DNA of 64,000 nt, from contig QPMI01000545.1 of assembly GCA_004431415.1 (NCBI GenBank), positions 186,001 through 250,000 of the forward strand, given 5' to 3'. This stretch comes from Cyanophora paradoxa CCMP329 (Eukaryota > Plantae > Glaucophyta). Made by a program: the position numbers and the translations under genes. The first letter of the stretch is position 1, and each line of letters opens with the position of its first letter. A model generated the notes under the pieces. The model worked only from the letters and a program-made list of their open reading frames with translations, did not search any database and had not been told where the DNA came from. Shown piece by piece: positions 22,260 through 64,000 of the stretch.

Positions 22260-22612
22260 CGCTAGCTGCCAGTGGCCAGCTGTACCCCCCTGCCCCGCCG
22301 CACTCTTCCCTCCGCCGCAAATGCAAGGGCCAGCCTCGATCCACGGCACTGATTATGATAGCCAGCGATCCGATGATAGCCTGCCTCGGTTGAGCGTCTC
22401 GTTCGAGAGTCTCGGCCCGGGGCGAGGGAAGAGATCTAGAGGAGGGAAACACGTGTGCGTGCCAATTGAGCGAAAGTGCGCGTGCCAGTCTGGAAACGTG
22501 TACGTGCACGCGAAAGTAATCCTATAGAGAGAGAAGAAGAAATTATGTACATAATTATATAGAGAAATCGAAGAAAGAAGCACTGCAGCCGATCAGCCAG
22601 CCGGCATCAACG

Positions 22613-23156
22613 ATGCAAGATCAAGACCGCGAGGTCCGCCTTCAGCTTGCGCGCGGCCCTGCAGCTGTAAACTCAGAGATTCGATTTCGCGAACAGAATT
22701 TCGCCCTCGGAGACGCTGAAATTGAGCATGACAGCAAAAAGCGCAAATTGGAGCAGGCGTGCATGGGGCTTTCTTTCGTATAAATCCGGAGCCATAACAT
22801 GCCCGCGCGATTTAATATGCATACGCAGGGAGACGTCGACGCGCTCACGCACCGCCCCGATTTCCAAGAACTGTACGAGGTGCGCATGCTCCGCGTCTTG
22901 ACGCAGGTCGCTCCTCAATCTCTGTAGGCGCGATTGCGTTCCAACTTTGCAATTGATCATGAGTGCGCAGGAATTTTACCATCTGCGAGGTGAAGTCAGG
23001 GCTTTGCAGGAGCGGCTTGCAGAGGACGAGGCGCGGCTGTCGGATGACGAGCAGCGGATCGCCTTGGGCGAGCAGCGGCTTGCGCAGGCCGCGGCCATGG
23101 GTGCGCAAGAACGTGTCCGATCGCGATCGCGAGGCAGGGATCAAATCCATTTTTGA
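22613..23156 (+). CDS. Small hypothetical coiled-coil protein (probably spliced)
   Basis: Intron-like segments flank short exons. The last exon is heptad-like (LRGEVRALQERLAEDEARLSDDEQRIALGEQRL). No family recognised. Confidence 0.3.
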
Positions 23157-23255
23157 AATTTGGCCGCAGATCTAGAGCAGCCGCAGCAGCCGCAGCGAAG
23201 CAGCGCCGGCGTGGCAGGCAACGCGGCCCGCCTGGGTGCGCATGCATTTGCGTGA

Positions 23256-23687
23256 AACTTTAAAATAGTGTCCGACTCGGCGAGAAATTTATTGCATGCG
23301 TTTTTCCGTGGCCCAGTGGGCTATTGGGAAGTCCCGCGCGAGATAAAGCCCAGCAACGTGACCCCAGAGCTGGTGCGAAAGTCTTGACAATCCCGTGTGA
23401 CGATCGAGGTCGATCATAAAGGCACGCGCCCCGGGCCCGCGCGCTCGCAGCTGGAGGCGTACCGCGACAACCGCGCGGTGTGCTTCGTGGTGGAAGGGCG
23501 GAACACCTACCATTTCGCCTGCTGTCCCGCCATGTACGAGGGGGGCGCGGAGCACACCAACTACAGCCGCGTGAACCCCAGACTCAAGGGCTACGTTTTC
23601 CGCAACGAGGCGCAGATGCGCGCGTGGGCCAAGGCACAAGTGATGGACAAGTGCCGCGTGTACACCTTCCGCTGCACCAAATACTAG
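23256..23687 (+). pseudogene. Intronless ORF remnant with an internal TGA; possible small His/Cys metal-binding domain
   Basis: The frame continues upstream of ORF 23397-23687 through a single TGA at 23385 (YWEVPREIKPSNVTPELVRKS*QSRVTIEV). It contains TYHFACCP...YVFRNEAQMRAW...C. Confidence 0.3.
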
Positions 23688-23964
23688 CACGTATACTGAT
23701 ATCGCGCGAGCTAGCCGCCGATCATGAGCTGCTGGGCAATGCATGCGCATATGTCGAATTGGTAATTGCTGAATATAATGCCGACCCATCAATGCTTTCT
23801 TAAGCTTCCTAGCTCTTCAAGTTCAATAAGAATTTATATGATGCGCTCGCCAAGCATGCGCAGGGCCGAACGCCCGCAGCAGCCCGTAAGCTTCTACCCA
23901 AACCCGTTCGCGCTGTCCATAATTACGATCACGGGCCTTGCATATGGCCACCAAGGGCTCGAGC

Positions 23965-39869: not shown

Positions 39870-42090
39870 CTCGAATCCGGCCGTGGGGACGGTGCGGTCC
39901 GCACTACGGTACCCTACGAACGGGCCCCCCTCCGGGGCCCGCCGGGCCGGGCCCCATGGGCCATGGACCATGACTCATGAGGGTTTGCGTCGCTCGACGG
40001 GAACGCGTCGACGTTGCCGTCGACTCCGACAAGTCGCCGTCGATCGCAACTCGCGAGTTGCCCTCGACGCTGTCAACCGATTAAAGCGGACTCGAGCGGC
40101 CAGCCTCGAGCTCAGGCTGCGCGCGGGGTCTACCCGGCTAGCCGATAGGAGGTGACTAGCACAAAATACTATGATACAGAATCAAGAGGGATCATGAGAA
40201 GGGACACGATCAGAAGAATGCAAAAGATAAGGAGAACGAGCACGAGGAGAAGGAGTAGAAGAGCTTAATTGCAAGGACGGTCGTAATTTCCCTCGTAAAT
40301 CGATATATGGAGTCACATTGGACCGGAGTAGACTCACTTGAAAAGGCTCACATTATATTGGACCGGAGTGTTATCCGATGATCGACGCGTATACGAGTAC
40401 GGTACGACCGTGACCGTCGCGATCGGACGTACGCGCCGCGGACCGCGGTCCGCGGTACGTATACGTATACGTACGTACGCCGCGCGCCGATCGCGAACGC
40501 CCGGCGCCGGCGGCCGCGGATCCGGACCGCGGTACGCGTACGCGTCGACTCGTTAAACGTTCGATATCGATCGATATATCGCGTTCGAATTCGCGTAAAT
40601 ACTAATATACTATGATAAAAATTCAAAAACATTCACGTCCAGGAAGACGTCGCGATCGACGTCGACGTCGACCCCTTTCGAATTCATGTACCAGTAGACT
40701 GGCAGTAATAGCCTAGTAGGTCCAGTACGTTACTGTACGTATACCCGCTAAACTACCCGCCGCAGCCTCCAATTCACGCACGCGAGTCGACGTCGGCGCC
40801 GGCGGCTCGGCCTCACCGCCGACTCGCGATCGGCGGCGAGTCGGCGCCGACTCGGCGAGTCGGCGGCTCGCCGAGTCGGCCTCACGATTCACGATTCACG
40901 AACTTTCGGAATCACGATTCATGACTCCGGAATTCGGATCCGGCCCATCATGATCATCCGGGCCGAATGGCCCGAATCATCCCGGAGACTGGGCCGGAGT
41001 CCGACCGACTACTAGTACTACGGTACTAGTACTCCGACGTCGACCGACCATCCAATGCATCCATGATGATGAATAGCTATAGCTTGACATGATCCCCTTA
41101 AGCTTAAAATTCTTATCAGTGTAGGCTGTGTTAGCCTGTGTAGCGGCACTGCTGCGGCAGTGCTGCGGGCCTGCGGCACTGTACGGTCTGTACCGTGTTA
41201 CCGCCGGGCCGGTTGCAATTGGTCCGTGTAACGTAACATGTACACATAAATACTGGACTCACTTAATTAACAGAGTCCCAAATTAACAGACCGAAATTTT
41301 GACATAGTCTGTTAATTTGGCACTCTGCTAATTTGCTGCTGTTCAGTACGTATACGTACTAGTCGTCTCATACAATCTACCCCCCAACATTAGCGCACCA
41401 TACAAGCCAAAATTAAATTGTTTAGTCTGCTAATTTAATTGGGACTCTGTTATTTCGCCTATAATTATAAGGGATCCGGATCGGAGGGCCAGATTTTAAA
41501 ACCTGTTATAATTAATTAACGGGCTGTTAATTTAGTGTAACACGGACGTTACACGGTAGTCTGTCACAGTGTAGCGGCAGTGTACCGGTAGGCTGTGTAT
41601 AGCCTGCGCAAGCTGGTCGGGTCGATCGCAAATTCGAATTCGCAATGGCGCACTCATCAGTAAATTGCGTTTAGGATGCTCCATGCTCGATTGACGCCGG
41701 CATGGCCATGGCATGGCCATTCGAATTCGTTCGAAGCTCGGCGCGCATGGATCGATATCGGAATGCCATCATGGATATCGGATATTCCGTCGCCAATGAC
41801 TCGCCAAGAGTCGCCATCCGACTCGATGATCCGAGTCGACGACGACTCGACGTCGACGTCCATGCGTGGAATATTTAATCCGGCGACCGACCGGCGTATA
41901 CGAACGTATGCGCGTGAATCCGCGCGCGCATGCACATATATGGCCAATTCCAGGCCAAAGCGTTGGCCGCGCGCGCCGGCCCGCGCGCCCGGCCCGCCGC
42001 GCGGCCGATTCCCGGAGTCCGATGTCGATGGTAGTCGATCGCGATCATCATGATCATCGACGCGATGAGATAGCTATAGCGCTATAGCTG
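39870..42090. repeat. Second palindrome-saturated non-coding block
   Basis: For example ccgcggaccgcggtccgcggtacgtatacgtatacgtacgtac (40435-40478), gagtcggcg/cgccgactc arrays (40785-40880) and actactagtactacggtactagtact (~41008-41033). Confidence 0.65.
41251..41546. mobile_element. Decayed MITE-like element with imperfect terminal and subterminal inverted repeats
   Basis: Left cacttaattaacag versus right ctgttaatttagtg (13/14 complementary). Internal 28-bp inverted pair at 41264-41291 / 41307-41334, and a third related copy at ~41425-41455. AT-rich and non-coding. Confidence 0.5.
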
Positions 42091-47274: not shown

Positions 47275-50200
47275 ATGAGCCCGGCGGGAGTCGTTGGACC
47301 CGGAAGTTGGCCTGAACCGACCAGGGGGGGTACCCTCGTCCCGCGCGCAAGTTCGTTGGGAGACGCTGCGGCCAGCAGCTGGCCTTTCGGGCAACCAGCA
47401 GCGATGCAGTCGGGCAACTTCATCCTCCCGACAGCAATCGCAGTGCTCCACACCTCGCGGCAGAATGCTGATCTCACATCGGTTATGCCGCGCATGCACA
47501 CCCAGGAGGGATGCATGGGCGTTCGTTACCACGAGCCTTCCGACAACTGGATGATGTTCTTCAAGACGCAGGCCCAGCGCGATGCTTTCGTTGCTAGTTC
47601 GCCCTTCCCAGCCACGTTGTGGCGCAGCGGAACGAAGACCAGCGTACCGCTTCAGATTTCCGCATACGATAGCCCCGATGCGAACAGCTTACTCATCGCC
47701 TGGATGAAGACGGTCCGGCGCGATAACAAGACACCCGACCAAGCCGCTGCGGCCTCGGGTCGCTCTGCTGTGGCGGATGACGATGACAACATTCCTCTCC
47801 CCACCCAGACTCCTGCCCCTACGCCCCCGGTGCCGTCCCGCCACGAGTCGCCCTTGTTTTGGAGGCGCTCAGCTAACATCTGTTGCCTGCGCTTTCGCTC
47901 CGTTTTTATGAACAGCCTCCAGCCTTCCTCGCTGCAGCCGCGGCGCAGCATGTTCGTTCGCCCCGGCCTCCGAGCCCTCATCGCTTAACGGCCCGCCCGC
48001 GCAGTCTTCAACCCCTCAGCCCGGCTTCCAGAGCTCTCAACGTGAGCGGTTTTGTAATCTCTTCGTGCATATTGGGAAGCGCTAAGGAAAAGTCGCTACG
48101 CAGCCCTCGAGGACTCCCAAGTCAGTGCCCGCGGCGGTCCCCCGCTGGACAGCTCCCAGATCAGACAGCAGCAGCAGCTTCAGGCATGCTCTTCTATTCT
48201 GCTTTTCCATTTCGCACCTTTCCTAACCGCGGTTTCGAATCGGCAGGCCGAGATGCGCAGGAAGCTGGCGCGCCACCTGATGGAGCTCGAGAACGAAGTC
48301 CAGACGCACATCTCGCGAACTTCGGGGCGGGGTTTGGATGGCAAGCCGGCGGCGAACGCGCTGGTGTTCTGCTGCTTCCCGAACCCCGCGCACCCGGAGC
48401 TCGGGCGCCAGCCGAAGCCCCGGAACTGGGACTGCATCACGTCGGACCTCACTCCCCGCATCGACGGCGTCGACAGGCCGCCCACGGTCAAGCACATGCA
48501 GCAGCTCCGCGGCGACATCTCGCTCGTGATGGAAGTGCGCTCGGGGCTCTTTGGCGGTTCTTTCTTCCGCTCTTTCGCGCCTCACGCGCAGCGCGCTGCA
48601 GGTGCTCCAGCGTAAGGAGCAGGACGAGGAGAACAACGCGGTCGACAAGCAGAGCACCGAGGGCCGCATTGGCACGCTTGTACAGGTCCGTGCGCCCGCG
48701 CCCCGGCTCCCTGCCAGCCGGGCGAGCGTCCTCCGCAGAGGATAAAGACGGAGAGCGAAGAGACGGCGCTCAAGCAGTCGATCGACGACCTGCACAGGAT
48801 CGCCGCCCACTCCGGTGACGCCCCCGCCGCGCCGCGCGGCCCCGCGCGCCTCGACCCGGCTGACCTCGGCGTGCAGAGCGGAACAAGGTCATGATTCGCG
48901 ACGCGGGAGCCATCCCGCCGCTCGTCGGCCACCTGCAGGTGCCCTCCCCGTCCATCCTTGGCCGCCCGGCCGCCCGCCGAGCCGCCCCGCCAGAGCCGGA
49001 GCGAGACCGTCAAGCGGAGCACGGTATCGCTCCTCGCGCGGCTCGCCAACATCGGTGCGCGGGGCCGCCGCCCGCCCCGCCCGGCCGCCGCTGACCGCCT
49101 CTGCCCCTCCAGAGCGCTGCAAGACGGCGATCCGCGACGCGGGTGCCATCCAGCCCCTCGTCGAGCTGCTCGGCTCGCGCGTCGAGGTCCGGCCCGCCCG
49201 GCGTCCCGCCCCCCGCCGCGGCTCTCCCGGCGCCGGACCCACGCCGGCCCGCGCAGGTGCTGCAGGAGAAGTCCGCGTCGATCCTGGCCAAGCTCGCCGT
49301 CAACGACGTCGACAAGAAGCTCATCCGCGACGCCAAGGCGAGTTTGCGCGCCGCCCGCCCCCCGCCCCGCACGCCCGCCCCCGCCCGCCCTCCTGAGGCG
49401 GCCGGGCGGCGCAGGGCATCCCGCCCCTCGTGCGGCTGCTCTCCTCCCAGAACGAGGCGGTCCAGACGAGCGCCGTCGCCGTCCTCGGCAACCTCGCCGT
49501 CAACGGTGCGCGCCGCGCCTGCGCACGCGCGCGGCGGGGCCGGCGCCGGGGCCGACGCTGGGCGCGGCGGGCGCGGGGCAGAGCGGAACCAGGAGGACAT
49601 CCGGGAGTCCGGGGCGATCAACCCGCTGGTTGCCCTCCTCGGCTCCCGCAACGAGATCCTGCAGGAGAAGTCCGCCGGGGCCCTCTGCAACCTCGCCTAT
49701 AACGGTGACCGCCCTGCCGACCCCGCGCCGGCCGCGCGCCGGCCGCGCTGACGCCGCCGGCTCGCAGACAAGAACCAGGAGGTGATCCGGGAGGCGGGGG
49801 CGATCCCGCAGCTGGTGCGCCTGCTGGCCGCCCGCAACGAGCTGGTGCAGGAGAACGCCGCCCGTGCCGTCTGGTACCTCGCCGCCAACGGTGCCCCGCC
49901 CCGCCCCGCCCCGCCCGCCCGGTGGCCGACTCGGCCGGGGCCAGTGCGCAACGAGGAGTACATTCGGGACGCGGGCGGTATCCCGCCGCTCGTGAAGCTG
50001 CTCGCCTCGGGCAACGAGTCGATCCAGCTCAACGCCGCCGGCGCCATCGCCTACCTCGCGCCCAACGGCACGCCCCCGCCCGTCGCCCGGCCGGGCCCTC
50101 AGCAGCCCCTGTGACGCTTGGTCGGGGCGCAGAGCGCAACCAAGACACGGTGGCGGAGGCGGGCGGCATCCCGCCCCTCATCGCCCTCCTCAAGAGCCGC

Positions 50201-51031
50201 AACGAGAAGCTGCAGGAGAAGGCCGCCAGTGCCTTCCGGTACCTCGGCCGCTCCGGTGCGCCCGGCCCCGCGCCGCTCGGGCTCTGCAGGCCGCCGCCGA
50301 CGGCCCGCCCCGCCCCGCGCCGCGCCGCGCCGCGCAGACCGGAACAAGGAGCTGATCGTGTCGGCGGGCGGCATCCCGCCCCTCGTCGCCCTCCTGAACT
50401 CGCCCAACAAGAACGTCCAGGAGAGCGCGGGCGGCGCCCTCGGCAACCTCGCCGTCTCCGGTGCGCCCGGCCGCGCCCCGAAAGCCCTCCCGCCGGCCGG
50501 GCGCCGACGCGCCGCCACGCAGACAAGAACCAGGAGATCATCCGGGAGGCGGGCGGGATCCCTCCGCTGGTGGCGCTGCTGCCGACGTGCACGGAGCCCG
50601 GGCGCGTCGGGCCCCTGGTCGCCCTCTGCAACCTCTCGGTCAACGACCGCAACAAGGAGCTCATCGTGCAGGCCGGCGGCATCCGGCCCCTCGTCGCCCT
50701 CCTCGCCTGCCGGGACGAGACCGTCCAGGGCTGCGCCGCCGGCGCCCTCCAGAACCTCGCCGTCTCCGACCGCAACAAGGACCTGATCCGCGACGCCGGG
50801 GGCATCGGGCACCTCGTGCAGCTCCTCCAGTCCCGCAACGAGACGATGCAGATGCACGCCGCCGGGGCGCTCCGGTATCTCTGCGCCACCGCCGAGGGCC
50901 GGAGGGTCCTCAAGCAGAGCAACGGGATCCCCGTGCTGGAGCAGCTCCGCCAGTCCCGCAACAGCTACGTCTCCAAGTGCTCCGTCCTCATCCTCAACTC
51001 CTTCGGCAAGAGCTACCGCCCCGCGCGGTGA
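47275..51031 (+). CDS. Armadillo-repeat protein (Vac8-like repeats, about 11) with an uncharacterised N-terminal region, multi-exon
   Basis: Repeated 41-aa unit (D/E)RN(K/Q)xxIRxAGGIPPLVxLLxSxNExxQExAAGALxNLA. Linking the 47275 ORF to the ARM exons is inferred from splice signals. Confidence 0.88.
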
Positions 51032-51250: not shown

Positions 51251-52554
51251 TCAATGAAGCGTCAGTCGGATGCGGCGCGGGGCGCGGGCGGGGGCGCCCC
51301 CGACCTCGAGGCGGCCGCCCGGGGCGAGGCGGGACACGAAGGCGCGGGCGGCGCGGGCGCCGCCGTCGCCCAGGGCGAGGTGCCCGAGGGCGAAGGAGGG
51401 CGTCGAGTGGGCCCAGAGCAGCTCGACGCCCTCGCCCGGCGCTGCGACGAGGGCGAGGAGGCCGGCGTGGGGCCCCGCCGCCAGCCAGGCCGCACCCGCG
51501 GGCCCTGCCCGGCCGCCGCCGCGTCGACGTCAGCGGGCGGCGCGGATCGGAGCCCACTGGGCCGGCGCCGCACCTGAGAGGACCGACTCTTCGAATAGGG
51601 CGCGGGCCGCCTCGTCGGGGCGGCCCCGGGCTCCGCCAGGCGCCGCGCGAGCGAGCGGCAGAAGTCGGCGCGCACGAGCGCCTCCCCCGCGCCGCTGCTG
51701 CTGCACGCGACGCCCGGCCGCGAGGCCGCCGCGGCCTGCGCCCAGCAGCCCGCCCCGAAGACCGCCGCCTGCGCGGCCCGCTCGCTCGCTCGCTCGGGCC
51801 CGGCCGCCGGCGCGGATCGGCGAGGGCGGACCTGGCCGACGCGGCCGCTGGTCTTGAAGAGGAGACCGCCGCTGGAGACCGCGGCTGCGCAGGCCCCGCC
51901 CCTCGCCCACGCCACCGCCCCGACCTTCGCGCCGGGGCCCCGTCGACCTTCGCGCCGGGGCCCCGTCGTCCGGCCTGCGCTCCGAGGGTCGGCCGATTGC
52001 GTGCGGGCCGCCGCAAGAGAGGGAGGCGAACCGGGGAGGAGGCCACGGGCGCCTTCCTCGAGGATCGCCGCCGCCAGCCTTACGGGGTTGCGGACGCCAG
52101 ACACGGCCCCGCAGGCGCCGAAGGCTTCTCCCTCACTCCGCATGATCGAGGCATCAAGCTCCACGGAACCGGTGGCTGTGAGGTTCGCGCCAACGCCCGC
52201 GTTGGTGAGCTCGTTGTCCTACGAGGGTCCGCGCGTTCGCTTGCGCATCATCGCTAGCTATAGTAGCATAGCTGCACGCGCGCGCGCACCTCCAGGCACT
52301 GCACCGCGGCCGCCACGCACTCGGTCACGCTCTGGCGACCGCGTTAGCTGCGCGGCATGCGCAGCTGCATTGCGCGCCGCGACGGATCGCTCGCGCGAAC
52401 CCGGCCGGCCTAGGCCTACGCGCACCTCGCTTCTCGCGTAGGCGTCGGCAGCTGCTTCGAGAGCGCGCTTGCAGGCCCGCACGTAAGCCAGCTCCTTGGA
52501 GCGGGCGTGCTGGCCTGCCCCGGCGTGTACGGCGACGACCAGGGCGGGCTCCAT
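51251..52554 (-). CDS. Taspase-1-like (type 2 asparaginase, Ntn hydrolase); internally deleted and lacking the catalytic Thr as assembled
   Basis: VAVHAGAG, LTNAGVGANLT, VELDASIM, GAVSGVRNPV, VGAV, AAVSSGGLLFKTSGRVGQAAVFGAGCWA, SSSGAGEAL, ELLWAHSTPSF. The expected DTVGAV reads AKVGAV. Confidence 0.8.
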
Positions 52555-52752
52555 CGGCAGGGTATGTACATGTCGCGGCGGCACCGAACGCACATTGCGT
52601 GTACCCCCCTTGCATCTTGACCCAAGGCGCCTGCGCATGGCAGCAGCATCCGCAGCGAGCGTCCGCAGATAAACAAGCACACGGACCTAGAAAGAGTCGA
52701 TTCGGGTTGGTGCCCAGGGGGTGCGACATTGCGTCAGCCGCACGAAGAAGCT

Positions 52753-54899
52753 ATGGCGCTGGCGGTAGATATCGGAGGCAGCCTAGCAAAGCTCGTGTAC
52801 TTCGAGCCCCGCGCCAGCGGCTCTTCGAACGACAAGCTCGATCTTGAGGTACGCAACGGCGACTGGGCAGCGCTCGTCGGCGGGGAGAAAAGCAAAGACG
52901 TCAAGCCCGGTGCGCTTAACTTCCACGTCCTGAGATGCGCCCCCGCCCGCTGACGGGCCTCTGTACGAACCGACAGCGAGCTCGGGCTCCCGGGGCCCTC
53001 AGACGGCGGGCAAGCGGAGCGTCAGCACGGATTACGGGCGCCTTCATTTCCTGAAGTTTGAGACACGAAACATCGTTGAATGCATCAAATGGGTCGGTGC
53101 GTACTCCGGCGCGCGCCCGCTCGCGATATCCGCTAGGGACGAGCGCCGCGCGGGGAGCGCGCCGCCGCGCGGCCCGCCGCCTCTTTCTCCGCGCGCCCCG
53201 CGCCTCTTATCGGTGCCCTGTCCGCACACGGCGGCGGCCGGACCGCAGACAAGACGCTGACGGAGCTAGAAGAGAACATGCAGACCAAGCCGGCGCAACG
53301 CGTGGTTTACGCGACTGGCGGCGGCGCTTTCAAGTATGCAAAACTCTTCCAAGAGCTCGCGAACATATCGCTAAAGAAGGTGGACGAGATGGAGGTGCGG
53401 CGCGCGCGCGCGCGCGTCTCGCGTGCTTGCGGCGTCCAGGAACCCGCCGTCTGACGCGGCACCGCGCGCAGAGCATCATCACCGGTCTCAACTACCTCTT
53501 GAAGCACGTGGAGGACGAGTCCTTCGTCTTCATGTCTGCGCTGAATAAAAAGAACCCCAAGATCTACGCCTCCCTCTCCGTGCGCGCAGGCCTCCCCGTC
53601 GCTCGCCCGAGCCGCGTCGCTGATTTCTCTCGCAGGAAAACCCTTTTCCCTACCTCATCGCCCACATCGGCAGCGGCGTCTCCATAATACGAGTGCCTTT
53701 CCCCCTCTTTTCTTTCTTTTCTTCTTCCTCTGCTCACGCCCCCGCAGGTCGACAGCGAGCACCAGTTCGAGCGCGTCAGCGGCACGAGCATAGGCGGCGG
53801 TGCGAAGAAGCTTTGCGCCAGCGCGCGGCGCCCTCGCCCGGGGCGCGCCTCACTTCGCCTCCCGCCGGCGCAGGCACCTTCCTGGGGCTCTGTCAGCTCC
53901 TCACCAACTGCCAGAACTTCGACGACCTCCTCAAGCTCTCCGCGAAGGGTGCGCGCGCGACCCCGCCCCGCCCCGCCTCCCGCGCCCCGCCGCGCCCCGC
54001 CCGAGGCGCAGCCGGCAGGGGACAACACGCGGGTGGACATGCTGGTGGGGGACATCTACGGGACGGACTACTCGCGGGTCGGGCTGCGGGCGGACACCAT
54101 CGCGTCCAGCTTCGGGAAGGTCCTCATGCGGCCCGGGCACCAGGGTCTCCCCGGCCTCTTCGGGCGCACCCTCCGCCGCACCGTCGGCCTCTGGATCGAC
54201 TTCCTCCGCCAGGCCCGCACCCCGCCCCCGCCCCCGCCCTCGCTCGCGAGCGAGCGAGCCGGCGGGCGCAGGTCCCGTTCGTGAGGCGGTTCGTGCCGGG
54301 CGTGCCGGGGGCCTCGTGCGGCTGCTGCAACGCGTGCGACCACTTCCGGAGCGAGGACATCGCCATGGGCCTCCTCCGCATGGTCTCCAACAACATAGCG
54401 CAGGTGCCCGGGCCCGCGCGCCCCGCCCCGCCCCGCGCCTTCCTTCCGCCTCCGCTCAGATCAGATCGGACCAGATCGCGTACCTGAACGCGCTGCGGTT
54501 CGGCCTGAACCGCATCTACTTCGGGGGCCACTTCATAAGGGACCACCGGTACACGATGGACACCATCTCGTACGGCGTCAACTTCTGGAGCAAGGGCGAG
54601 GTCAGGGCCCTCTTTGCTCTTGGCTTACTGCAGCTTTATCCCCCCTTAGCTTATCGAAGCTTTACTGGAGCTTATTTCTCTTGGCTCACTGAAGCTTTAT
54701 CCCCCCTTAGCTTATCAAAGCTTTACTGGAGCTTATTTCTCTTGGCTTATTGAAGCTTTGGTCTTACTGTCCGGCCCAGGTCAAGGCGCTCTTCCTGCAG
54801 CACGACGGGTACCTCGGCGCCCTCGGCGCCTTCCTCCACTCGGGCGACGCCGGCCTCCGCGCCTCGGACGCCACGCGGTGCGCGCCCCGACTGGGGTAA
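52753..54899 (+). CDS. PANK: Type II (eukaryotic, fumble-like) pantothenate kinase, multi-exon
   Basis: [117 protein letters not shown]. Confidence 0.95.
54617..54759 (+). repeat. Intronic tandem repeat, 61-bp period, about 2.3 copies, AGCT-rich
   Basis: ctcttggc recurs at 54617, 54678 and 54739 with near-identical sequence in between; lies in the last PanK intron. Confidence 0.9.
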
Positions 54900-55092
54900 T
54901 CTGTGAACCAAATATCATATATATGTGGGCCTTTGTGAAGCGTTGAGCTCTCGAGCTTGCCCCTTCGCTGTCAATGTATTGTTAACCCTCGGAGGTTGAT
55001 GAGTCACGCGTTGCGGAGGTTGCATTGTTATATTGCATTCGGGGAGGCACGGGGACTAACACGTCCGACGTACCCCTCGGGGCCTCCGGCCT

Positions 55093-56571
55093 CTAACTAT
55101 GCTCAGACTCTAACTGAATGCTGTACCCCCTCACTGGCCGAAGTGAGACGGTCCCCACTCGAGGTCGGGGTGGGCCATGGGGCCTCCGGCGGGGTACGAT
55201 GCTCCCGCTTGCCAGCTCCATGTACTCCCCCACGGGGTTGTCTTCGTTTGCGAGGTCCCTGTAGTTGCCCTTTACGAGATCCGCCGCCGCTTTGCGCCAG
55301 CGAACGGCCACGTTGTACGTGTTGTCGATGATGTTCTGCACTGTACCTCCATGGGTATTAGGGACGGCCTATAGTCGACCTGTCTCTCACGCAGGTTCAA
55401 TTCCCTTTGGTAGTAATCCACTGCGTCTGGGAGGGCCCTGAGCTCCAACGGGTGCTGGCCGGGTCCGACGAGCTAATGAGCCCGGAGCGTTGCAGCGCGT
55501 TCACAGCCGCCCGCAGCATGATTTTGCCTACCCCCCGCATCGCGTTATTCTGCTCGGGCGTCCCGTACCCCCCTGCGGCCCGTAATCGTTGTAGTAGCTC
55601 TCTATTTCGACTGTGGCCGGGCTAGTACCAACCCGAGGCTGCACAAAGCCGTACAGCCATGCCATAGCGTCGTTGTCCGCGGAGCGGCCGCTCTCGGAGA
55701 GGAAGAGAACACTTCGATTTTGAAGTCCCTCGTCCGCCGGTTGACTCGCGTCATTAGGTTGAGGGGGTAGCGCGCATTGCCGAATTTATCAGGAAAGAGG
55801 CGGTGTAGCTTGAACCATGCTTCCTGATCGCCGTACGACATTCGCTCGCGGCTCGCTGAGAATTTCTACCTGTACCCCTACTCGCGGTCGGGTACTTGTA
55901 GCCGGGCATCAGCCTCGCGCGCTTGCGCATCTCCGCCTCCTCGGGTAGCCAGTTCTTCGGGTCGTTGCTCCACTCCTCCCATTCGCGTATGTCTCGCCCG
56001 ACGTCACGTGGGGCGGGGCGTTTATCGGTGGGGCGGGCGGGGCTGGCAGGGCCTGGCGCCGGGGTTGAGGCCCCTGTTCCACGAGTACTCGGGGTACTCT
56101 TCCCAGCCCAGGGGTACCAGATTTGCCGGAATCGGCTCAACTTCGAATTGGGGCTTTTTGGTGTGATACTCATAGTTCGTGACGTACGCCGTCACAGCCG
56201 AGCGCAAGCGCGAGAGGTCGCGCAAATTTACGTCGTCCCATTCCGAGTCCCTTGCCTTCGCGTACCGCTCGAGGATTTGCATGCGAATGTGGTCCGGGAG
56301 GGTCGAGAGTATGCTGAGCTTGGAGCCCAGGGCGAACCAGATGCGCTTGAACTCGTCGATAATCCTGCCCTCGTCGTGGCTCCGGACGTATGAGGCCCCG
56401 CCATAGTTGTAATGGCTGTCCAGCCACCCTGCCCGGCCAGCTCCAGCACCGGCCAGGTTGGCGCTGTCGATTCGGTCGCGAGGCCTGCTCTACCACCCAG
56501 CGTCTAAGGTCCTTGACCTGATCTATGAACTGTGCGATCACGTCCTTGGGCGCTTCCTCTGCATCCGACAT
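55093..56571 (-). CDS. Intronless protein with a C-terminal GNAT-like acetyltransferase domain; interrupted by several 1-nt slips
   Basis: Joining frames gives MSDAEEAPKDVIAQFIDQVKDLRRW...TVEIESYYN...NNAMRGVGKIMLRAAVNALQRSG...LELRALPDAVDYYQRELNL...MEGTVQNII. This matches GNAT motif A (RGxG) and motif B (A..YY). 3' end uncertain. Confidence 0.6.
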
Positions 56572-56621
56572 TTGCAATTGCACACATCAAGAAATTCTAA
56601 ACGCTACTGCGAGACCAAGTC

Positions 56622-57286
56622 ATGCATACCGATACAGATTGCGAGACTTGCGAGAACTTGCAACAGGGGAGCGCGGCGTGGCACGCGGCGCGCCGCGAAA
56701 AGCTAACTGCCTCGAACTTTGCGGCTGCGTGCGGCATAAATCCCTGGAAATCCAGGGCCCGCCTCTGGGCGGAGCTAAGCGGCATAGCGGAGGAAAACAA
56801 CTTCGACAACCCTGCGCTAACCTACGGCATGACTATGAGCCCCTCGCGGTCTCTCTCTACAAAACGTCGAACAACAACGTGGACGTGCAACATACTGGAT
56901 TGCACGAACATAAGGAACTGCCCTTCCTGGCGGGCAGCCCGGACGGGCTGATTGGAAGCGATCGTATACTTGAAATAAAATGCCCCTACAAACAAGAACT
57001 CTACGAAAAGGTCCCAACTTATTACATGCCCCAGCTCCAGGGCCTGCTGGACATAACGGGCCGCGAGTGGGCCGAACTTTTTTGCTTCACTCCTCTGCGC
57101 GTGCAAACGTGGTACGTCAGACGGGACGAGAGGTACATCAAGCTCATGAGGAAGTGCTTACATCTATTTTGGATGCACGTCAAGGAGGGCACGCCGCCCG
57201 AGCCCTACAGCGATCGAATGAAGTCAGAGAACCTCAGCGAGGAGCAGGCGGCGCTGCGCGAGTTTAAGTCGTACGCCCTCCTCTAG
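56622..57286 (+). CDS. YqaJ-like viral recombinase / lambda-exonuclease family PD-(D/E)XK nuclease (1-nt frameshift at ~56826)
   Basis: QGSAAWHAARREKLTAS, YGHDYEP, TGL, FLAGSPDGLI, LEIKCPY, YYMPQLQGLL. The second copy has an extra G that restores the frame. Confidence 0.92.
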
Positions 57287-57335
57287 TGTCCGGACCTTTC
57301 CAATACTCTATATGATTATTGGAGGGTCCGGACAC
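57286..57335. terminator. Stem-loop immediately after the YqaJ stop codon
   Basis: gtgtccggacctttccaata ... tattggagggtccggacac forms a stem of ~18-19 bp with an AT-rich loop, between convergent genes. Function inferred. Confidence 0.5.
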
Positions 57336-57439
57336 GTCTCTTGGTCAGACTACTTCTGTCCCAGGTCTTTGGAATCTTAATATAAATTTTCCCGGGACCC
57401 GGGACAGGCTTGGTCGGACTCACCGTAGCTTGGTGTAGC

Positions 57440-60400
57440 TCAGGCCCAGGCCGGGTAGGCGAGTCTGTAATGAATCAGACCGCGCAGGATTTGGTTGAGC
57501 TGCTCGGTGCAGGGGGCGGGAAGGCGAGGCCGCGGAGGCCATAGAGACGTAGCGGAAGGGGTGGGGAGGCGGCCCCTGTTATCCCACATGGCGTCCACTA
57601 TGGCGTTGTGGACCACTTGCTCTGGGAGGGCGGGACGGGCCTGCGCGCACCGTTTCAGGCCCTCAGCAGCCCTCGAAGATGTTGGAGTTGGCGTGCACCA
57701 GCGGGAGGGAGGGCTGGACGGCGGCGGCGAGCCCGGGCCGAGCCCTGGGTGGCGAGGGCCTGCGAGGGCGCCGGCTCCAGCTCCATCTCGAACATACCGC
57801 CCTCGACGTCGACGGTCACGGGCGGCGAGGCCGGGATCGCGCCGGCCTGCTGCGTGGCGGGGACCTGAGCCGAGAAGTTCTCGAGCCGCCACTCGCGGCA
57901 GCCCTGGCACTCACCTGGACGAAGACGGTGCGGTTGGCGACGGGCGGCGTCGGCAGGGCCTGCGCGGGGCGTCACTCACAGAAGCCGAAGGCGCCGGCCT
58001 TGTGGGGCGGGGCGTCGGGGTCGCGGGCGTGCTATAGGCCTCCGAGCCCTCCGATTCAGAGTCACTCACCGGGCTGAGAGGGTGGGGTGAGAAGAGGCCG
58101 AGGCGGGCCTTCTTGGCGGGCAGGAGGTGGGAGCCGTTGAGGGCGCAATCGGCGCCGTGGGCGCACCTCTCTCCGTAGGTGGGCAGAGGGCCGGGGGCGA
58201 GGGCGCCGGAGCCAAGGGCGCCGGAGCCGAGGACGCCGGGGCTGGAGGAGCGGTGAGAGGGGCCGAGGAGGAGAGGAAGGGGAAGGCGCGGGCACCGGCG
58301 CCGGGACGAGGCCCTCCTCCAGCAGCCGCATCTGCGCCTCCTTCGCCTTCTCGTCGATGCGGGCCTCGAACGTCGCCCAGTTGAAGCCGACGGCGTCCGC
58401 CTCCGCCAGCTCGGGGAGGCCGTGCTCGTCGAACGCCAGCGCGGGCCGCCCGCTGAAGCCGAACGGGGCGGGGGCGAGAGCGCGTTGTCCCCGACGCCCC
58501 AGACGGCGCTGAACGCCGCATCGTCCCAGCGCGCCTCCGCCTCCGCCTGGCCCTCGTCCCTTGCCTCGTCCACCTCCTTGGCGGAGAGCGACCCGATCTT
58601 GATGATGGAGGCCTGGATCAGCACAAACTCGCGCTGGAAGAATTGGACGAGCGGGATGGTAACTGCGGGAGAGGGGTGAGCGGGAGAGCGCGGGGCGCAG
58701 GCCAAGGGCGGGGCGCAGGCCAAGGGCGGGGCGGACGCACATTCGATGCCGTAGGCCACCTCCTTGATGTAGCGGCCCCGGCGGCCGATCTCCTTGGCCA
58801 GCATGCTGCACTCCTTGCGCGCCGGGTGGCCGTGGCCCCACTCCATGGCGATCATCGCCTTCGCCAGACGGACGCCCTCGATGTGCCACTCGTCCATCAG
58901 CGCCTCCAGCTTGGCGCAGATGCGCATCCAGAAGAAGACGCGCTTGAGCTTGTCGCGGTCGAATTCGGCGTCGCCGCTCTTGCTGCCCCAGTCGCGCAGG
59001 TCCGTCTCCTCCGCCTTCTTCACCTTCTCGTACCAGCACTTGATCTTCTCCGCCTGGCGCTGGAACTCGTCCGCCCGCGCCGTGAGAACGTCCGACTCCT
59101 CCTGCGCTCCGAGGGCCCGGGGTCAGGGAGGAGAGGCGGGCTAAGCGGGGCGGCGGCGGACCGTGTGCGAGAGCTCGCCGACGATCACGGAGATGGCCGC
59201 CGAGAGGATCTCACGGGCGCGGGCCGGCCCGTTTGGGTGGCCCTCGCGCAGAACCTCCTCCAGCTTCAGCACGGCCGTCCGCGCGAGATCGCGGTGGCGC
59301 TGGCGGGTCTCGTCGCTCCGGCCCTGATCCACGAGAAGCTGGAGCTGGGGCCGCATGCCGGAGTCGCAGACGCTGGCGTACTTCAGAAGGGCCGCGCAGG
59401 AGAGCACCTTCTGCACGCTGACCAGCCAGTACGCGTAGCCCAGCGGGCTCTCCGCGCTCGGGTTCTCCCCGACCTGCGGACGCGACCTTAGCGCGCGCAG
59501 GGGCAGGGGAAAGGGGAAAGGGCGGGCTCTCGCGCACGTAAATGTCATCGGCGCAGGAGAGGAACATGTGATCAACGACGTCGAAGAAGCCGCCGGACGG
59601 GAGCGTGCCGACGCCGTGGTACGCGCCTTGGATGGTCTCGCCGGCGCAGATGCCGGCCTGGACGGTGACGGTGTACTGCGAGGCCGGCGGCCCCTCCTTC
59701 ACGTAGACGAAGTTGAGGTCGTACTTCTTGGCGTACGTCGGGTTGATGCGCTTGGTGACGATGACGTAATCGCACCGAACGCCGAGGCCGACGGGCTGGC
59801 CTTCTCCTTCTCCGTCACCGACGCCAGGCACTGATCCCGCGCGATCAAGAGCTGCAGCGGCCCGCGCGTGAGCAAGCGCGGGCACGCGAGCGCAGGGAAG
59901 GGCCCTCACCCCGTGGGCGCCGCCGCTGCCGGATTTGAGGTCCGCGAGGAACTCCTTCTGCTCCGGAGTGCCGGAGAAGATCGCGCGCGGATGGAAATCG
60001 CGATGGAGCGCGATGCTGTTGAAGCAGCCCGCCGCCGCATTGTCGGACATCAGCAACAGCGCCACATCGCCGTGCGTGAAGCCGTACTTCGCCTTCACAT
60101 GCTCCGGCAGCTCGTGAATGCTGTAAGGCACGATCTGCGCGCGGGGCACGCGAGCCGGGGCATGTGAGCCGGGCCGAAGCGGTGCGGGCGAAACCGCGAA
60201 CCTCGTTGAACTTATTCACCGGCGTGAACTGGCCCTTGGTCTTCAAGCGCTTCGGGTGGCCGTCCGTGTTCTGGATCTTCTTCAGCCCGCCGAACGGCTC
60301 GAAGCGCGGCACGCCGGCCGAGTTGAACACGCTATCGCAGGTCATCGCGTTGAGCGCCTCCTCCGCCGACAGGCTGCCGAGATCGCGGGCTATGCTGTCC

Positions 60401-60453
60401 TGCTCGCCGGGCTGCTGCTGCTTCGCGCACGAGCGGAAGGTCGCCGCCTGCAT
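57440..60453 (-). CDS. Large orphan protein (island gene B), spliced
   Basis: Protein-like exons joined by GT-AG introns (...TPVNKFNE|IVPYSIHE...; ...SCADDIY|VGENPSAE...; KLKRVFFWMRICAKLE). Cys/His motifs near the C-terminus (RCAHGADC, GECQGC). No family recognised; several homopolymer slips. Confidence 0.65.
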
Positions 60454-60758
60454 CGCGAGTGTTACTGCCCGCGATGTCTCAACGGATTCCGTTCAACGTC
60501 GTACCCCCGCTGGCTTGTTCCCTCCCCAACTCGCGAAGACTCAGACTTGAAGCCCGCTTCCCCCCCCCTCAAAATGCGTACCCCCCTTGGGCTCGAACCC
60601 CGGTCGGTTTCTCGCTTTTTTTTGACTGCCCAGTCCGGCGATGCAATGCAGGCCGCTCGTTCAAATCGGCTGGGAACTTGGCGCCAGAACCTTCGCAGCG
60701 CGCGCAGCACTCCCAGCAGAGCGCGCGCAGCACCGGCGGCAGCATCGGCGGCAGCAGC

Positions 60759-63613
60759 ATGTCTCGGCTCGCGCTCCCTCCGGAGATCCCGGCTAAGCTG
60801 GCGAAGAACACGCTGTACGACGTTCTCTGCGTCGGCGACAGCTTCGGCGTCGATTGGACGGTTTTCGAGGCCGGCATCAGCGACCAGGCGAAGGAGGCGC
60901 AGGCGCGTGCGCTGGAGGATGGCATGCAGTTCAGCCCGAGCAGCAAGGATGTGCTGCGCAAGACCGAGCTGGCCGAGCGCAAGCGCAAGCTCGCCGCGGC
61001 GCGGACTTTGAACGCCGAGGGTGCCCCCGGCCCGTCGGTGCAGTTCTCCATCGACTCCGTCCTGTCGCGGCTGCGGCTCGCGGAGGTGCTCGCTGCCTCT
61101 TTCTCCCTCACGCGCCCGGCTCGCAGCGGCTGAGGCGCCGCCGCGCTCGCAGGACGCGGACGTGCGGGCGATGCACGCGGCGCTGAACATGACGGAGGAG
61201 AACTTCGACACGCCGAGCAAGCCGAAGCCCGGGCGCGATTCCGACGCCCGCCGGCTGTTCGCGGCGCAGCGCCTGCGGCTGCTCATGGGCGCCGTGCCCC
61301 GGCACATCGCCAAGGGCGAGTGGCGCACGATTGGCCTGCTGGCGGGCCCGGAGGAGTTCTACTTCAACCGCATGGCGGAGGCGGCCCCGCACCTGCTCTG
61401 GCTGCTGGTGCTCAGCTCGGACCCGGCCTACACGCCCGAGGTGCGCCCCCGGCCGCCCGTGCAGCCGCGGCCGCCCTCCCCGCCGACCCCCGCCGGCCCG
61501 CAGAGGCTGGCGAAGGGCATCATGGGCGTCGAGGCGCGCTGCATCATGCGGAACAGCCGCGCGTTCATCACGCGCCACGAGAGCTCGGCGGTCTGGGGCG
61601 AGCGGCCGGACACCGGCGTCCTCACCGACGCCTACGCCATCCGCATCGTGCTGGAGGCGGCCTGCCGGACGTGCCGGGACCGCCACGGGCGCCAGGGCAT
61701 CTGCGCCTTCGACCTGGTTCCTGAGTTCGAGGTGCCCGGCGTCACCATCGGCGACCGCGTGCAGGTGCGCCGTTTCTATTTGGATGCTATTTAGATGCTA
61801 TTTAGACTATTTAGATGCCATTTAAACCCCCTCGCAGGTCATCCGCCGGTGCTCGATGCCGGACTCGCACGGGCGGCCCATGATCCACGGCGCCGTGAAG
61901 TACGTGGTGCCGCGGCGCACCCTCGCCCTCACCTTCTTCGTCCCCGTCTTCGACAAGGCGGCCGCCGCCGCCGCCGCCGCCGCCTCCCGCCCCGCCCCAT
62001 GCTCGCGGCCGCGGAGTCCTCGGATTCCGACTCGGATTCCGAGGCGGAGCGCGAGGCCGAGGCCGCCGCCGCGGCCCGGGCGCTGGACTTCACGGAGGAG
62101 GAGCTGGAGCGGGCGCGGAGCCTGCCGCGCGCCGGCCAGGCGATGGCCGCGGCCTTCCAGGCGGCGATCGGCGAGGCGACGGCCTCCGCCTCGGGCGCCC
62201 GGGCCGGCGGCAGCATGATCACGGCGGAGGGCCTCGCGCGCGCCATGCGCGTGGCCCAGGCCCAGGCCCAGGCGAAGGGCAAGGGCAAGGGCAAGGCCGC
62301 CTACATCGACCTGCGGTTCGAGGAGGAGGAGGCGGGTGCCCCGGCGGCGCGGCGCGATCTCGGCGAGGAGATGGAGGCGGCGGCCCCCAAGGCGGCCGGT
62401 GCGCCCTCCCCGCCCCTAATTTCTGAGCCTAGGGCGTTCCAGAGGCGCAAAGGAATGACCCTGCCCACAGAGGAGGAGCTGGAGGCCGAGCGCGAGATGG
62501 AGATGGAGGCCGCGCTGGCGGCGGCGGCGGACGCGAAGGCCTCGCGCGAGCTGGAGGTGGCGGAGGAGTACGCGATGGAGCTGGAGCGCGAGCGCGAGCG
62601 CGAGGGCGAGCCCGATGCGGAGCTGGCGGCGACGGTGGAGGCGGGGGCGGGGGACACCTTCGAGCCCGAGCCCCCGTCGACGAGTTCTACCCCCTCCCGC
62701 CCTCCCCTCCCTCGACGGCGCCCCGCCGCCGCCCATCGAGGAGTTCTCGGACGACGAGCCCGGCGACGCCGGCCCCAGGCCGCCCCTCGTCTCCCCCGCC
62801 GCCCGCCGCCCCCGTGCCCCCCGCCAGCCCCGCCGCCTCCGACGTCTCCTGGCGCCCGAGCGGCAACCCCTCGGCCTTCAGTCCCTTCCGCCCCTCGCAG
62901 CCCTCGCAGCGCCCGCCGCCCTCCGTCCAGGGTACCCCCTCGCCCGCCCCATCCCCTCGCCGCCGCGGGGCACGCCCGTCGCCACGCCCGCCTCCTCCCT
63001 CGGCCACATGCCCCCTCCGCCCCTCCGGCCCCCGCGCCGGCCGCCTCTCCCGCCGGGCCCAGCAGCGGCGCGAGCGCGAGCGGCAGCTGCTGCGCGATCA
63101 GCGGGCGGAGGCGGAGGCGGACCACGACGACGGCCAGGCGTCGGAGGTGCCCCGGCGGCGCGGCGCGATCTCGGCGAGGAGATGGAGGCGGCGGCCCCCA
63201 AGGCGGCCGGTGCGCCCTCCCCGCCCCTAATTTCTGAGCCTAGGGCGTTCCAGAGGCGCAAAGGAATGACCCTGCCCACAGAGGAGGAGCTGGAGGCCGA
63301 GCGCGAGATGGAGATGGAGGCCGCGCTGGCGGCGGCGGCGGACGCGAAGGCCTCGCGCGAGCTGGAGGTGGCGGAGGAGTACGCGATGGAGCTGGAGCGC
63401 GAGCGCGAGCGCGAGGGCGAGCCCGATGCGGAGCTGGCGGCGACGGTGGAGGCGGGGGCGGGGGACACCTTCGAGCCCGAGCCCCCCGTCGACGAGTTCT
63501 ACCCCCTCCCGCCCTCCCCCTCCCTCGACGGCGCCCCGCCGCCGCCCATCGAGGAGTTCTCGGACGACGAGCCCGGCGACGCCGGCCCCAGGCCGCCCCT
63601 CAAGAAATTCTAA
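60759..63613 (+). CDS. Orphan protein (island gene C), spliced, with a Cys/His cluster and a duplicated acidic C-terminal region
   Basis: Exons MSRLALPPEIPAKLAKNTLYDVLC...RLAE|DADVRAM...YTPE|RLAKG...CRTCRDRHGRQGICAFD...DRVQ|VIRRCSMPDSHG..., then an acidic tail. The last frame stops at TAA 63611-63613. Confidence 0.6.
62335..63601 (+). repeat. ~455-bp direct repeat (62335-62788 and 63146-63601)
   Basis: The copies differ only in C-run lengths as far as can be read by eye. Both encode RRDLGEEMEAAAPK...EEFSDDEPGDAGPRPPL. Confidence 0.92.
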
Positions 63614-64000
63614 ACGCTACTGCGAGACCAAGTCATGCATACCGATACAGATTGCGAGACTTGCGAGAACTTGCAACAGGGGAGCGCGGCGTGGCACGCG
63701 GCGCGCCGCGAAAAGCTAACTGCCTCGAACTTTGCGGCTGCGTGCGGCATAAATCCCTGGAAATCCAGGGCCCGCCTCTGGGCGGAGCTAAGCGGCATAG
63801 CGGAGGAAAACAACTTCGACAACCCTGCGCTAACCTACGGGCATGACTATGAGCCCCTCGCGGTCTCTCTCTACAAAACGTCGAACAACAACGTGGACGT
63901 GCAACATACTGGATTGCACGAACATAAGGAACTGCCCTTCCTGGCGGGCAGCCCGGACGGGCTGATTGGAAGCGATCGTATACTTGAAATAAAATGCCCC
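63600..64000 (+). repeat. Direct repeat of 56587-56986 (at least 400 bp, runs off the window)
   Basis: Both copies start tcaagaaattctaaacgctactgcgag. The only difference seen is tacggcat versus tacgggcat. Confidence 0.95.
63635..64000 (+). CDS. Second YqaJ-like exonuclease copy, in frame, truncated by the window edge
   Basis: ATG at 63635; reads ...NPALTYGHDYEPLAV...AGSPDGLIGSDRILEIKCP without a frameshift. Confidence 0.9.
   Translation, partial: MHTDTDCETCENLQQGSAAWHAARREKLTASNFAAACGINPWKSRARLWAELSGIAEENNFDNPALTYGHDYEPLAVSLYKTSNNNVDVQHTGLHEHKELPFLAGSPDGLIGSDRILEIKCP

What the first reader, a model, noticed from the sequence alone, without database searches (positions are those of the whole stretch)
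56587..64000. 7,013-bp head-to-tail unit: the YqaJ region restarts, and gene C terminates inside the repeat
Seen: 56587-56986 recurs at 63600-64000. The junction has only a 2-nt microhomology (tc). Gene C reads through the junction (…GPRPPLKKF*, TAA 63611-63613), and YqaJ starts 21 bp later. Inference: the unit [YqaJ, B, C] is circularly closed, as expected for a tandem concatemer, an integrated circle or long terminal direct repeats. Near identity means a very recent event.
Basis: partly seen in the sequence, partly recalled or inferred. Interest (0 to 1): 0.72.

Follow-up and report, generated by a model that had tools for sequence, protein, structure and literature searches.

The report
Truncated virus-like element amplified in tandem
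In the alga Cyanophora paradoxa, one copy of a virus-like element present roughly 40 times in the genome has lost its predicted DNA helicase and is repeated head to tail in the assembly, likely through a local copying accident rather than because the 7-kb unit is a natural circle.

Summary
The repeat is real: 56587-56986 equals 63600-64000 but for one homopolymer indel, with a 2-nt overlap. The 7,013-bp unit is not the element's natural form. It is an internal piece of a larger element (about 40 copies by depth; gene models on 32 contigs) that begins near 54914, includes two more genes left of 56587, and normally carries a 1,435-1,540-aa gene C ending in a predicted D5-type helicase. Here C is cut before the helicase by two backward jumps (811 bp at 63146, then 6.2 kb at 63600); its KKF* end is borrowed spacer. 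A second gene model with the same contig label has both junctions, so the whole unit repeats; no other contig has more than one C. Short-read contigs of three DNA runs show only the normal neighbours at 63600, which excludes a family-wide junction but not a one-locus one. Best reading: local tandem amplification of a defective copy; rivals are a helper-dependent amplicon and an assembly artefact. The parent family (three orphan genes, YqaJ, helicase, spliced introns) was not found in my literature searches or in earlier scan notes, and is the more interesting object.

The parts
52753..54899 (+). Host pantothenate kinase gene (left flank, single-copy reference)
   Evidence: Pfam Fumble PF03630 E 2e-16; one long contig at depth 91.4 in X1 (to 54686) and 14.6 in X14 (to 54943)
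54914..64000 (.). Multi-copy element; left end approximate, right part outside the window
   Evidence: X14's single-copy contig ends at 54943, so the repeat starts near 54914 if words are 31 long (inference); long contigs inside are 26-47 times deeper than the host contig, 7-17 times in the most GC-rich piece
55093..55841 (-). Gene D, in pieces in this copy; resembles a GNAT acetyltransferase by eye only
   Evidence: Six-frame translation; no Pfam or meaningful NCBIfam hit for its four pieces; the GNAT likeness is recalled, not tested
55878..56571 (-). Gene A, orphan of about 230 aa, divergent from YqaJ, outside the repeated unit
   Evidence: Homologues P0065-P0072, all from the same species; contig X15 record 18 spans 56061-56782
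56572..56621 (.). 50-bp spacer between the A and YqaJ start codons; holds the landing point 56587 and supplies the KKF* tail
   Evidence: other copies also join here: 55892 to 56567 (gene A missing) and a replaced start after 56610
56587..63599 (+). 7,013-bp repeated unit (YqaJ, B, truncated C with internal duplication)
56622..57286 (+). YqaJ-family PD-(D/E)xK exonuclease, copy 1; one-base frameshift in a G run near 56827
   Evidence: Pfam PF09588; PHROG 434 RecE-like exonuclease, E 8e-25 for copy 2; 127 phage records at under 60% identity, best 39%
57286..57336 (.). Hairpin between the converging YqaJ and B genes, followed by a weaker one; candidate terminator or origin
   Evidence: 57270-57419 folds at -32.6 kcal/mol, z -6.24, 0 of 200 shuffles as good; function not tested
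57440..60453 (-). Gene B, spliced orphan of about 800 aa
   Evidence: Exons seen in contigs of X15 and X17; 21 clusters, all from one species; only 3 hits among 1.84 billion representatives, all the same family; no Pfam hit
60759..63613 (+). Gene C, truncated: 759-aa model P0073 against 1,435-1,540 aa in intact copies; helicase half missing
   Evidence: P0073 tiles onto the window with 2 of 759 residues unmatched; alignment of C models
63145..63146 (+). Junction J1: jump back 811 bp to 62335; overlap about 1 nt
   Evidence: X14 record 16 leaves the window sequence after 63146
63146..63601 (+). Second copy of 62335-62788
63599..63601 (+). Junction J2: jump back to 56587; overlap TC
63600..64000 (+). 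Start of unit 2, with YqaJ copy 2 in frame from 63635

Best explanation
The repeat at 63600 is the start of the next unit of a head-to-tail array that likely arose when one integrated copy of a roughly 40-copy virus-like element was re-copied with two backward jumps, which cut off its predicted D5-type helicase, and was then likely amplified in place by unequal recombination. Shown: both junctions and their 1-2 nt overlaps; the truncation of C; the multi-copy state of the family; the extension of the element left of the unit. Inferred: template switching or end joining as the cause; that further whole units follow the window (from gene models only); that the parent element copies itself with its helicase and uses YqaJ for recombination. 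The array is a defective derivative at one locus, not the element's normal form.
For: Two jumps in a row, 811 bp and then 6.2 kb back, no substitutions. 17 of 25 C models continue normally at J1, 2 of 25 carry J1 and J2, 6 are uninformative. Both J1+J2 models share one contig label, which also has two more C and three more B models; it is the only one of 23 C-bearing contigs with more than one C. All B and C models with that label share the window's diagnostic residues. Loose ends at 63600/63601 in X1, X14, X5 and X15 read the normal neighbours. The missing half of C aligns to a profile of 12 phage P4/D5-type primase-helicases: hhalign probability 79.9, score 47.7 over 131 columns, against at most 0.56 and 20.3 in 30 column shuffles.
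Against: No listed short-read contig bridges J2 (X1 8 of 18 records shown, X14 2 of 2, X5 6 of 6, X15 1 of 1); in X1 the listed normal records leave under 8 units of depth at 63595-63599 against a single-copy depth of 91. Such contigs drop rare connections, so this is weak, but it leaves J2 without support outside the assembly. J1 was not tested. The diagnostic residues are shared with about ten other loci, so they do not prove local origin. Nothing here separates unequal crossover from rolling-circle copying. The helicase call rests on motifs and one profile pair; Pfam gives only AAA_22 below its cut-off.
Confidence: 0.6

Rival explanations
1. Helper-dependent defective amplicon: the helicase-less unit keeps a cis origin and is copied as a rolling-circle concatemer by helicase from intact copies, then integrates or persists beside the chromosome.
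For: The unit loses exactly the predicted helicase and keeps a strong hairpin and a recombination exonuclease; the same double junction recurs in a second unit; the family is transcribed and spliced. Defective herpesvirus genomes that keep an origin are the precedent (PMC10734421, passages).
Against: Found at 1 of 23 C-bearing contigs; no high-depth J2 contig in three DNA runs; the hairpin lies between converging genes and may be a terminator; origins proposed in an earlier scan note for other elements of this genome lie next to the helicase gene, a region lost here (unchecked note e1-10595310).
Confidence: 0.16
2. Assembly artefact: chimeric long reads or a mis-walked repeat created J1/J2, or inflated the number of units.
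For: No bridging contig; the window has many single-base deletions in G runs that short-read contigs correct (12 shown, 38 more not shown), so this repeat is poorly polished; multi-copy viral elements are known to assemble badly (PMC8547959, passages).
Against: The same two-step junction stands in two units with different indel patterns, which a one-off chimera would not give; the host-to-element joint on the left is covered by a single-copy short-read contig. An inflated unit count remains possible even if J2 is real.
Confidence: 0.18
3. One reading: [YqaJ, B, C] is a natural circular unit, or 56587 onward is a long terminal direct repeat of a KolobokP-like element.
For: Exact repeat; C stops just inside it and YqaJ starts 21 bp later; KolobokP elements have terminal direct repeats and form multimers, and KolobokE has a lambda-type nuclease (PMC9587614, passages).
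Against: The element goes on about 1.7 kb left of 56587 at the same depth; normal C is twice as long; the whole unit, not a terminal part, recurs; YqaJ stands alone, not behind a transposase domain.
Confidence: 0.04

Closest known systems
Endogenous polinton-like viruses / Polisuviricotina and their mobile replicase modules (10.64898/2026.10.13.758929 and 10.1101/2022.07.28.501842, passages)
   Same: Many integrated copies; large protein with a C-terminal SF3 helicase; YqaJ occurs as an accessory gene; tandem integration and tandem mosaic copies are reported.
   Different: No capsid, packaging ATPase, integrase or recombinase in the 9 kb visible here; B and C have spliceosomal introns and host-like GC (70-75%); no primase or polymerase domain was detected; the tandem here is a truncated internal piece, not whole genomes.
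Mriyaviricetes (PMC11253617, passages)
   Same: SF3 helicase at the C-terminus of a larger protein with a poorly conserved N-terminus; a PD-(D/E)xK nuclease; no DNA polymerase seen.
   Different: HUH endonuclease and major capsid protein not seen in the visible part; no relative found in viral contigs.
Defective viral genomes of HSV-1 (PMC10734421, passages)
   Same: Rearranged genome that has lost a predicted replication gene; junctions with little homology.
   Different: Chromosome-linked in the assembly; origin, helper dependence and packaging are not shown.
KolobokP / KolobokE transposons (PMC9587614, passages)
   Same: Direct repeats and multimers (P); lambda-type nuclease (E).
   Different: The repeat is not terminal, the nuclease is not fused, no transposase was recognised, and a helicase gene is present.

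Membership tests
D5/P4-type SF3 helicase (intact gene C) | Walker A, Walker B, motif C and arginine finger in SF3 order | tested here: met
   hhalign against 12 phage primase-helicases aligns Walker A to the arginine-finger strand, probability 79.9, shuffles at most 0.56; Walker B is atypical (MAE)
D5/P4-type SF3 helicase (intact gene C) | N-terminal primase or polymerase domain | tested here: inconclusive
   No hit in Pfam, PHROGs, NCBIfam or PDB sequences; structure model failed (pLDDT 31.6)
Polinton-like viruses | Major and minor capsid protein and packaging ATPase | not testable with these tools
Polinton-like viruses | Terminal inverted repeats and target-site duplication | not testable with these tools
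   Only the left end is visible, to within some tens of bases
Polinton-like viruses | Integrase or tyrosine recombinase | tested here: inconclusive
   Not recognised in A, B, C or D; B has no usable model
Polinton-like viruses | GC content below the host, compact genes | tested here: inconclusive
   Left part 60% and YqaJ 56% against 71% for the host, but B 70% and C 75% with introns
Mriyaviricetes | SF3 or SF2 helicase plus PD-(D/E)xK nuclease | tested here: met
   these two genes are not specific to the class
Mriyaviricetes | HUH endonuclease and NCLDV-type major capsid protein | not testable with these tools
   Not recognised in the visible part; the rest is not held
KolobokP | Direct repeats of about 450 or 660 bp at the two ends of the element | tested here: not met
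   The repeat starts 1.7 kb inside the element and the whole unit recurs
KolobokE | Lambda-type nuclease fused behind a DDD/E transposase | tested here: not met
   YqaJ is a stand-alone gene of about 220 codons with its own start
Defective interfering amplicon | Head-to-tail reiteration of a deleted genome | tested here: met
   units beyond the window are seen only as gene models
Defective interfering amplicon | Cis origin retained in the unit | tested here: inconclusive
   Hairpin at 57286-57336, z -6.24; function unknown
Defective interfering amplicon | Replication in trans by intact copies; extrachromosomal form | not testable with these tools
   Needs raw reads or bench work

The most novel reading that the evidence does not exclude
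The parent is a capsid-less, intron-bearing, self-replicating element of a new kind (D5-type helicase, YqaJ exonuclease, orphan B as its unrecognised integrase or primase), and the 7,013-bp unit is its defective-interfering amplicon, rolled out as a concatemer from the hairpin by helicase supplied by the other copies.
Probability: 0.12. Interest if true: 0.78.

Novelty: new variant of a known kind. Interest (0 to 1): 0.4.

Why it matters
As a tandem amplification of a broken copy the junction is ordinary, and it warns against reading 'gene ends inside the repeat' as a sign of a natural circle. The lasting value is the parent: a young, transcribed family of about 40 copies whose largest genes are spliced, with no relative found outside this alga. 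If its unseen right half lacks capsid genes, it would be a helicase-driven mobile element of a form I did not find described; if the array proves to be copied in trans, the hairpin would map its origin and show defective-interfering behaviour in an endogenous element.

Tried and rejected
No run is on record as RNA or kept as raw reads; contigs only. AlphaFold on B (pLDDT 30.1) and on C (31.6) failed; fold searches on the C model gave nothing meaningful. The protein atlas was unavailable. No relatives of B in metagenome contigs, of C in viral contigs or phages, or of YqaJ in viral contigs; these scans find close relatives only. No Rfam match in 52000-64000. No fold signal at J1, J2 or the left end (z between -1.14 and 0.79). 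A 14-nt inverted match between the left end (54908-54921) and the hairpin loop (57309-57322) is too short and AT-rich to use. DDE-like motifs in B and the GNAT likeness of D are recalled resemblances that no search supported. P0023's tail matches the antisense of B at 59391-59435, which hints at a further junction in the array, but a prediction artefact is not excluded. Earlier scan notes: look-ups by sequence for C, YqaJ and B and by place found nothing.
Full report
Observation. The repeat is as described. 56587-56986 matches 63600-64000 over 401 columns with no substitution and one indel in a G run; the overlap at the junction is TC; the frame ends GPRPPLKKF* at 63611-63613 and YqaJ starts 21 nt later. 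The sequence therefore runs through the element to 63145, jumps back 811 bp (J1), copies 454 bp and jumps back about 6.2 kb (J2). The first copy of that 454-bp piece continues as ordinary coding sequence, so the KKF* end is spacer DNA read by accident: one of three frames stops that soon, and a 2-nt overlap is expected in about 19% of random joins.

Setting. The host is a GC-rich, intron-rich eukaryote; all protein matches are labelled Cyanophora paradoxa. The left flank is a pantothenate kinase gene. Short-read contigs cover it as one long piece at depth 91.4 (X1) and 14.6 (X14), whereas long pieces from 56185 onward are 26-47 times deeper, 7-17 times in the most GC-rich piece. Contig depth is a rough measure, but it agrees with gene models of A, B or C on 32 contigs, with B and C within two gene numbers on 20 of 20 contigs that have both. 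X14's host contig ends at 54943, which puts the start of the repeat near 54914 (inference).

The element. Left of the unit lie two more genes on the minus strand, A (start 56571, 50 bp from the YqaJ start) and D, at the same high depth; one contig spans 56061-56782 without a break. So 56587 is inside the element. YqaJ is a clear PD-(D/E)xK exonuclease. B is spliced in contigs of two runs guessed to be RNA, and one C intron is skipped with GT..AG ends in X17; this shows expression of the family, not of this copy. B has no relative outside the species among 1.84 billion representatives; the searches for A and C, limited to longer proteins, also returned only this species. Intact C models are 1,435-1,540 aa (one fused model 1,765). 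Their C-terminal half has a Walker A motif and aligns to a profile of 12 phage P4/D5-type primase-helicases with probability 79.9 against at most 0.56 in 30 shuffles. I call it a predicted SF3 helicase; no primase domain was detected.

The array. P0073 (759 aa) tiles onto the window's gene C with 2 residues unmatched; P0034 (726 aa) has the same contig label, the same J1 and the same PLKKF end but needs other frame changes, so it is another unit. That label carries four C and three B models; the model of the window's own B was not retrieved. It is the only one of 23 C-bearing contigs with more than one C. Of 25 C models examined, 17 pass J1 normally, 2 have J1 and J2, and 6 are uninformative. 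I take the models with this label as a view of what follows the window; that is an inference. It means the whole unit repeats, which rules out a terminal repeat.

Is J2 real? Laying four runs on 63540-63660 gave no listed record across the junction (17 of 27 records shown); loose ends read the normal C continuation in X1, X14 and X5 and the normal A side in X1 and X15; in X1 under 8 depth units are unaccounted for at 63595-63599. This excludes J2 as the arrangement of most copies. It does not exclude a junction at one locus, since such contigs drop rare connections beside deep ones (tool text). J1 was not tested. The window has many single-base deletions in G runs relative to short-read contigs; a published assembly of this species was made from PacBio RSII reads with Canu and the alga is reported as likely haploid (PMC6704402, passages). 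The three indels between the copies are of that kind and are likely errors. Two units with the same double junction argue against a one-off chimera.

Mechanism. Most likely (0.6): template switching or end joining in one integrated copy produced J1 and J2 and a tandem duplication without the helicase; unequal recombination between the identical units then lengthened the array. The spacer at 56567-56610 is also a joining point in other copies, so it may be a module boundary. Rivals: an artefact of assembly (0.18) and a helper-dependent rolling-circle amplicon (0.16), for which the unit's hairpin (z -6.24) is the only candidate origin. A natural circle or terminal repeat is nearly excluded (0.04).

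Known kinds. The gene set works like the replication and recombination module of polinton-like viruses or mriyaviruses (10.64898/2026.10.13.758929, 10.1101/2022.07.28.501842, PMC11253617; passages read), but membership needs capsid, HUH or integrase genes and termini that lie outside what I could see. KolobokP and KolobokE fail on tested features (PMC9587614, passages). Polinton-like viruses and giant-virus insertions are mentioned for this alga in PMC12220804 and PMC12344493 (passages), neither with YqaJ. Nine full-text searches gave no description of this family; the library lacks most subscription journals and repeat databases. Earlier scan notes describe other virus-like elements of this genome, one with YqaJ and a different helicase type; sequence look-ups found no overlap.

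Verdict. A real repeat, a tandem array of a helicase-less piece at one locus, inside an apparently undescribed multi-copy element. Interest 0.4, carried mostly by the parent family.

Noticed in passing
window 55892-56567 and 56610-56661: A subfamily (depth 629 in X1) lacks gene A and has a different YqaJ start without the cysteine-rich N-terminus; the altered start is also in X14 and X17.
   Followed up: no
window 57276-57409: Other copies vary around the hairpin (joints going back 52 and about 80 bases, loose ends that repeat a hairpin arm).
   Followed up: partly
window 54614-54759: A PanK intron is filled by 2.3 copies of an AT-richer 61-bp unit, unlike the short GC-rich introns around it.
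   Followed up: no
window 61776-61824: A gene C intron holds 4.6 copies of an 11-bp AT-rich unit and is skipped with GT..AG ends in X17.
   Followed up: partly
window 61901; P0031: One C copy has a 34-aa insertion bounded by a repeated GAVK; matching letters are a loose end in X17. Possibly a small insertion with a target duplication.
   Followed up: no
P0076, P0035, P0039 against P0030: Two subfamilies of the helicase half (about 70% identical) occur with mixed N-terminal halves, which suggests recombination between copies.
   Followed up: partly
P0041 and P0025 tails; P0066, P0070, P0071: Fused gene models give glimpses of further genes beyond C and, in some copies, another gene beyond A that is absent from this window.
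   Followed up: no
window 54916-54925: A perfect 10-bp palindrome lies at the approximate left end of the element.
   Followed up: no
window 48864-51031: Host armadillo-repeat gene with repeats split by short introns.
   Followed up: partly
window 22500-23700 and 40000-42000: Two other stretches of lower GC with short ORFs; not identified.
   Followed up: no
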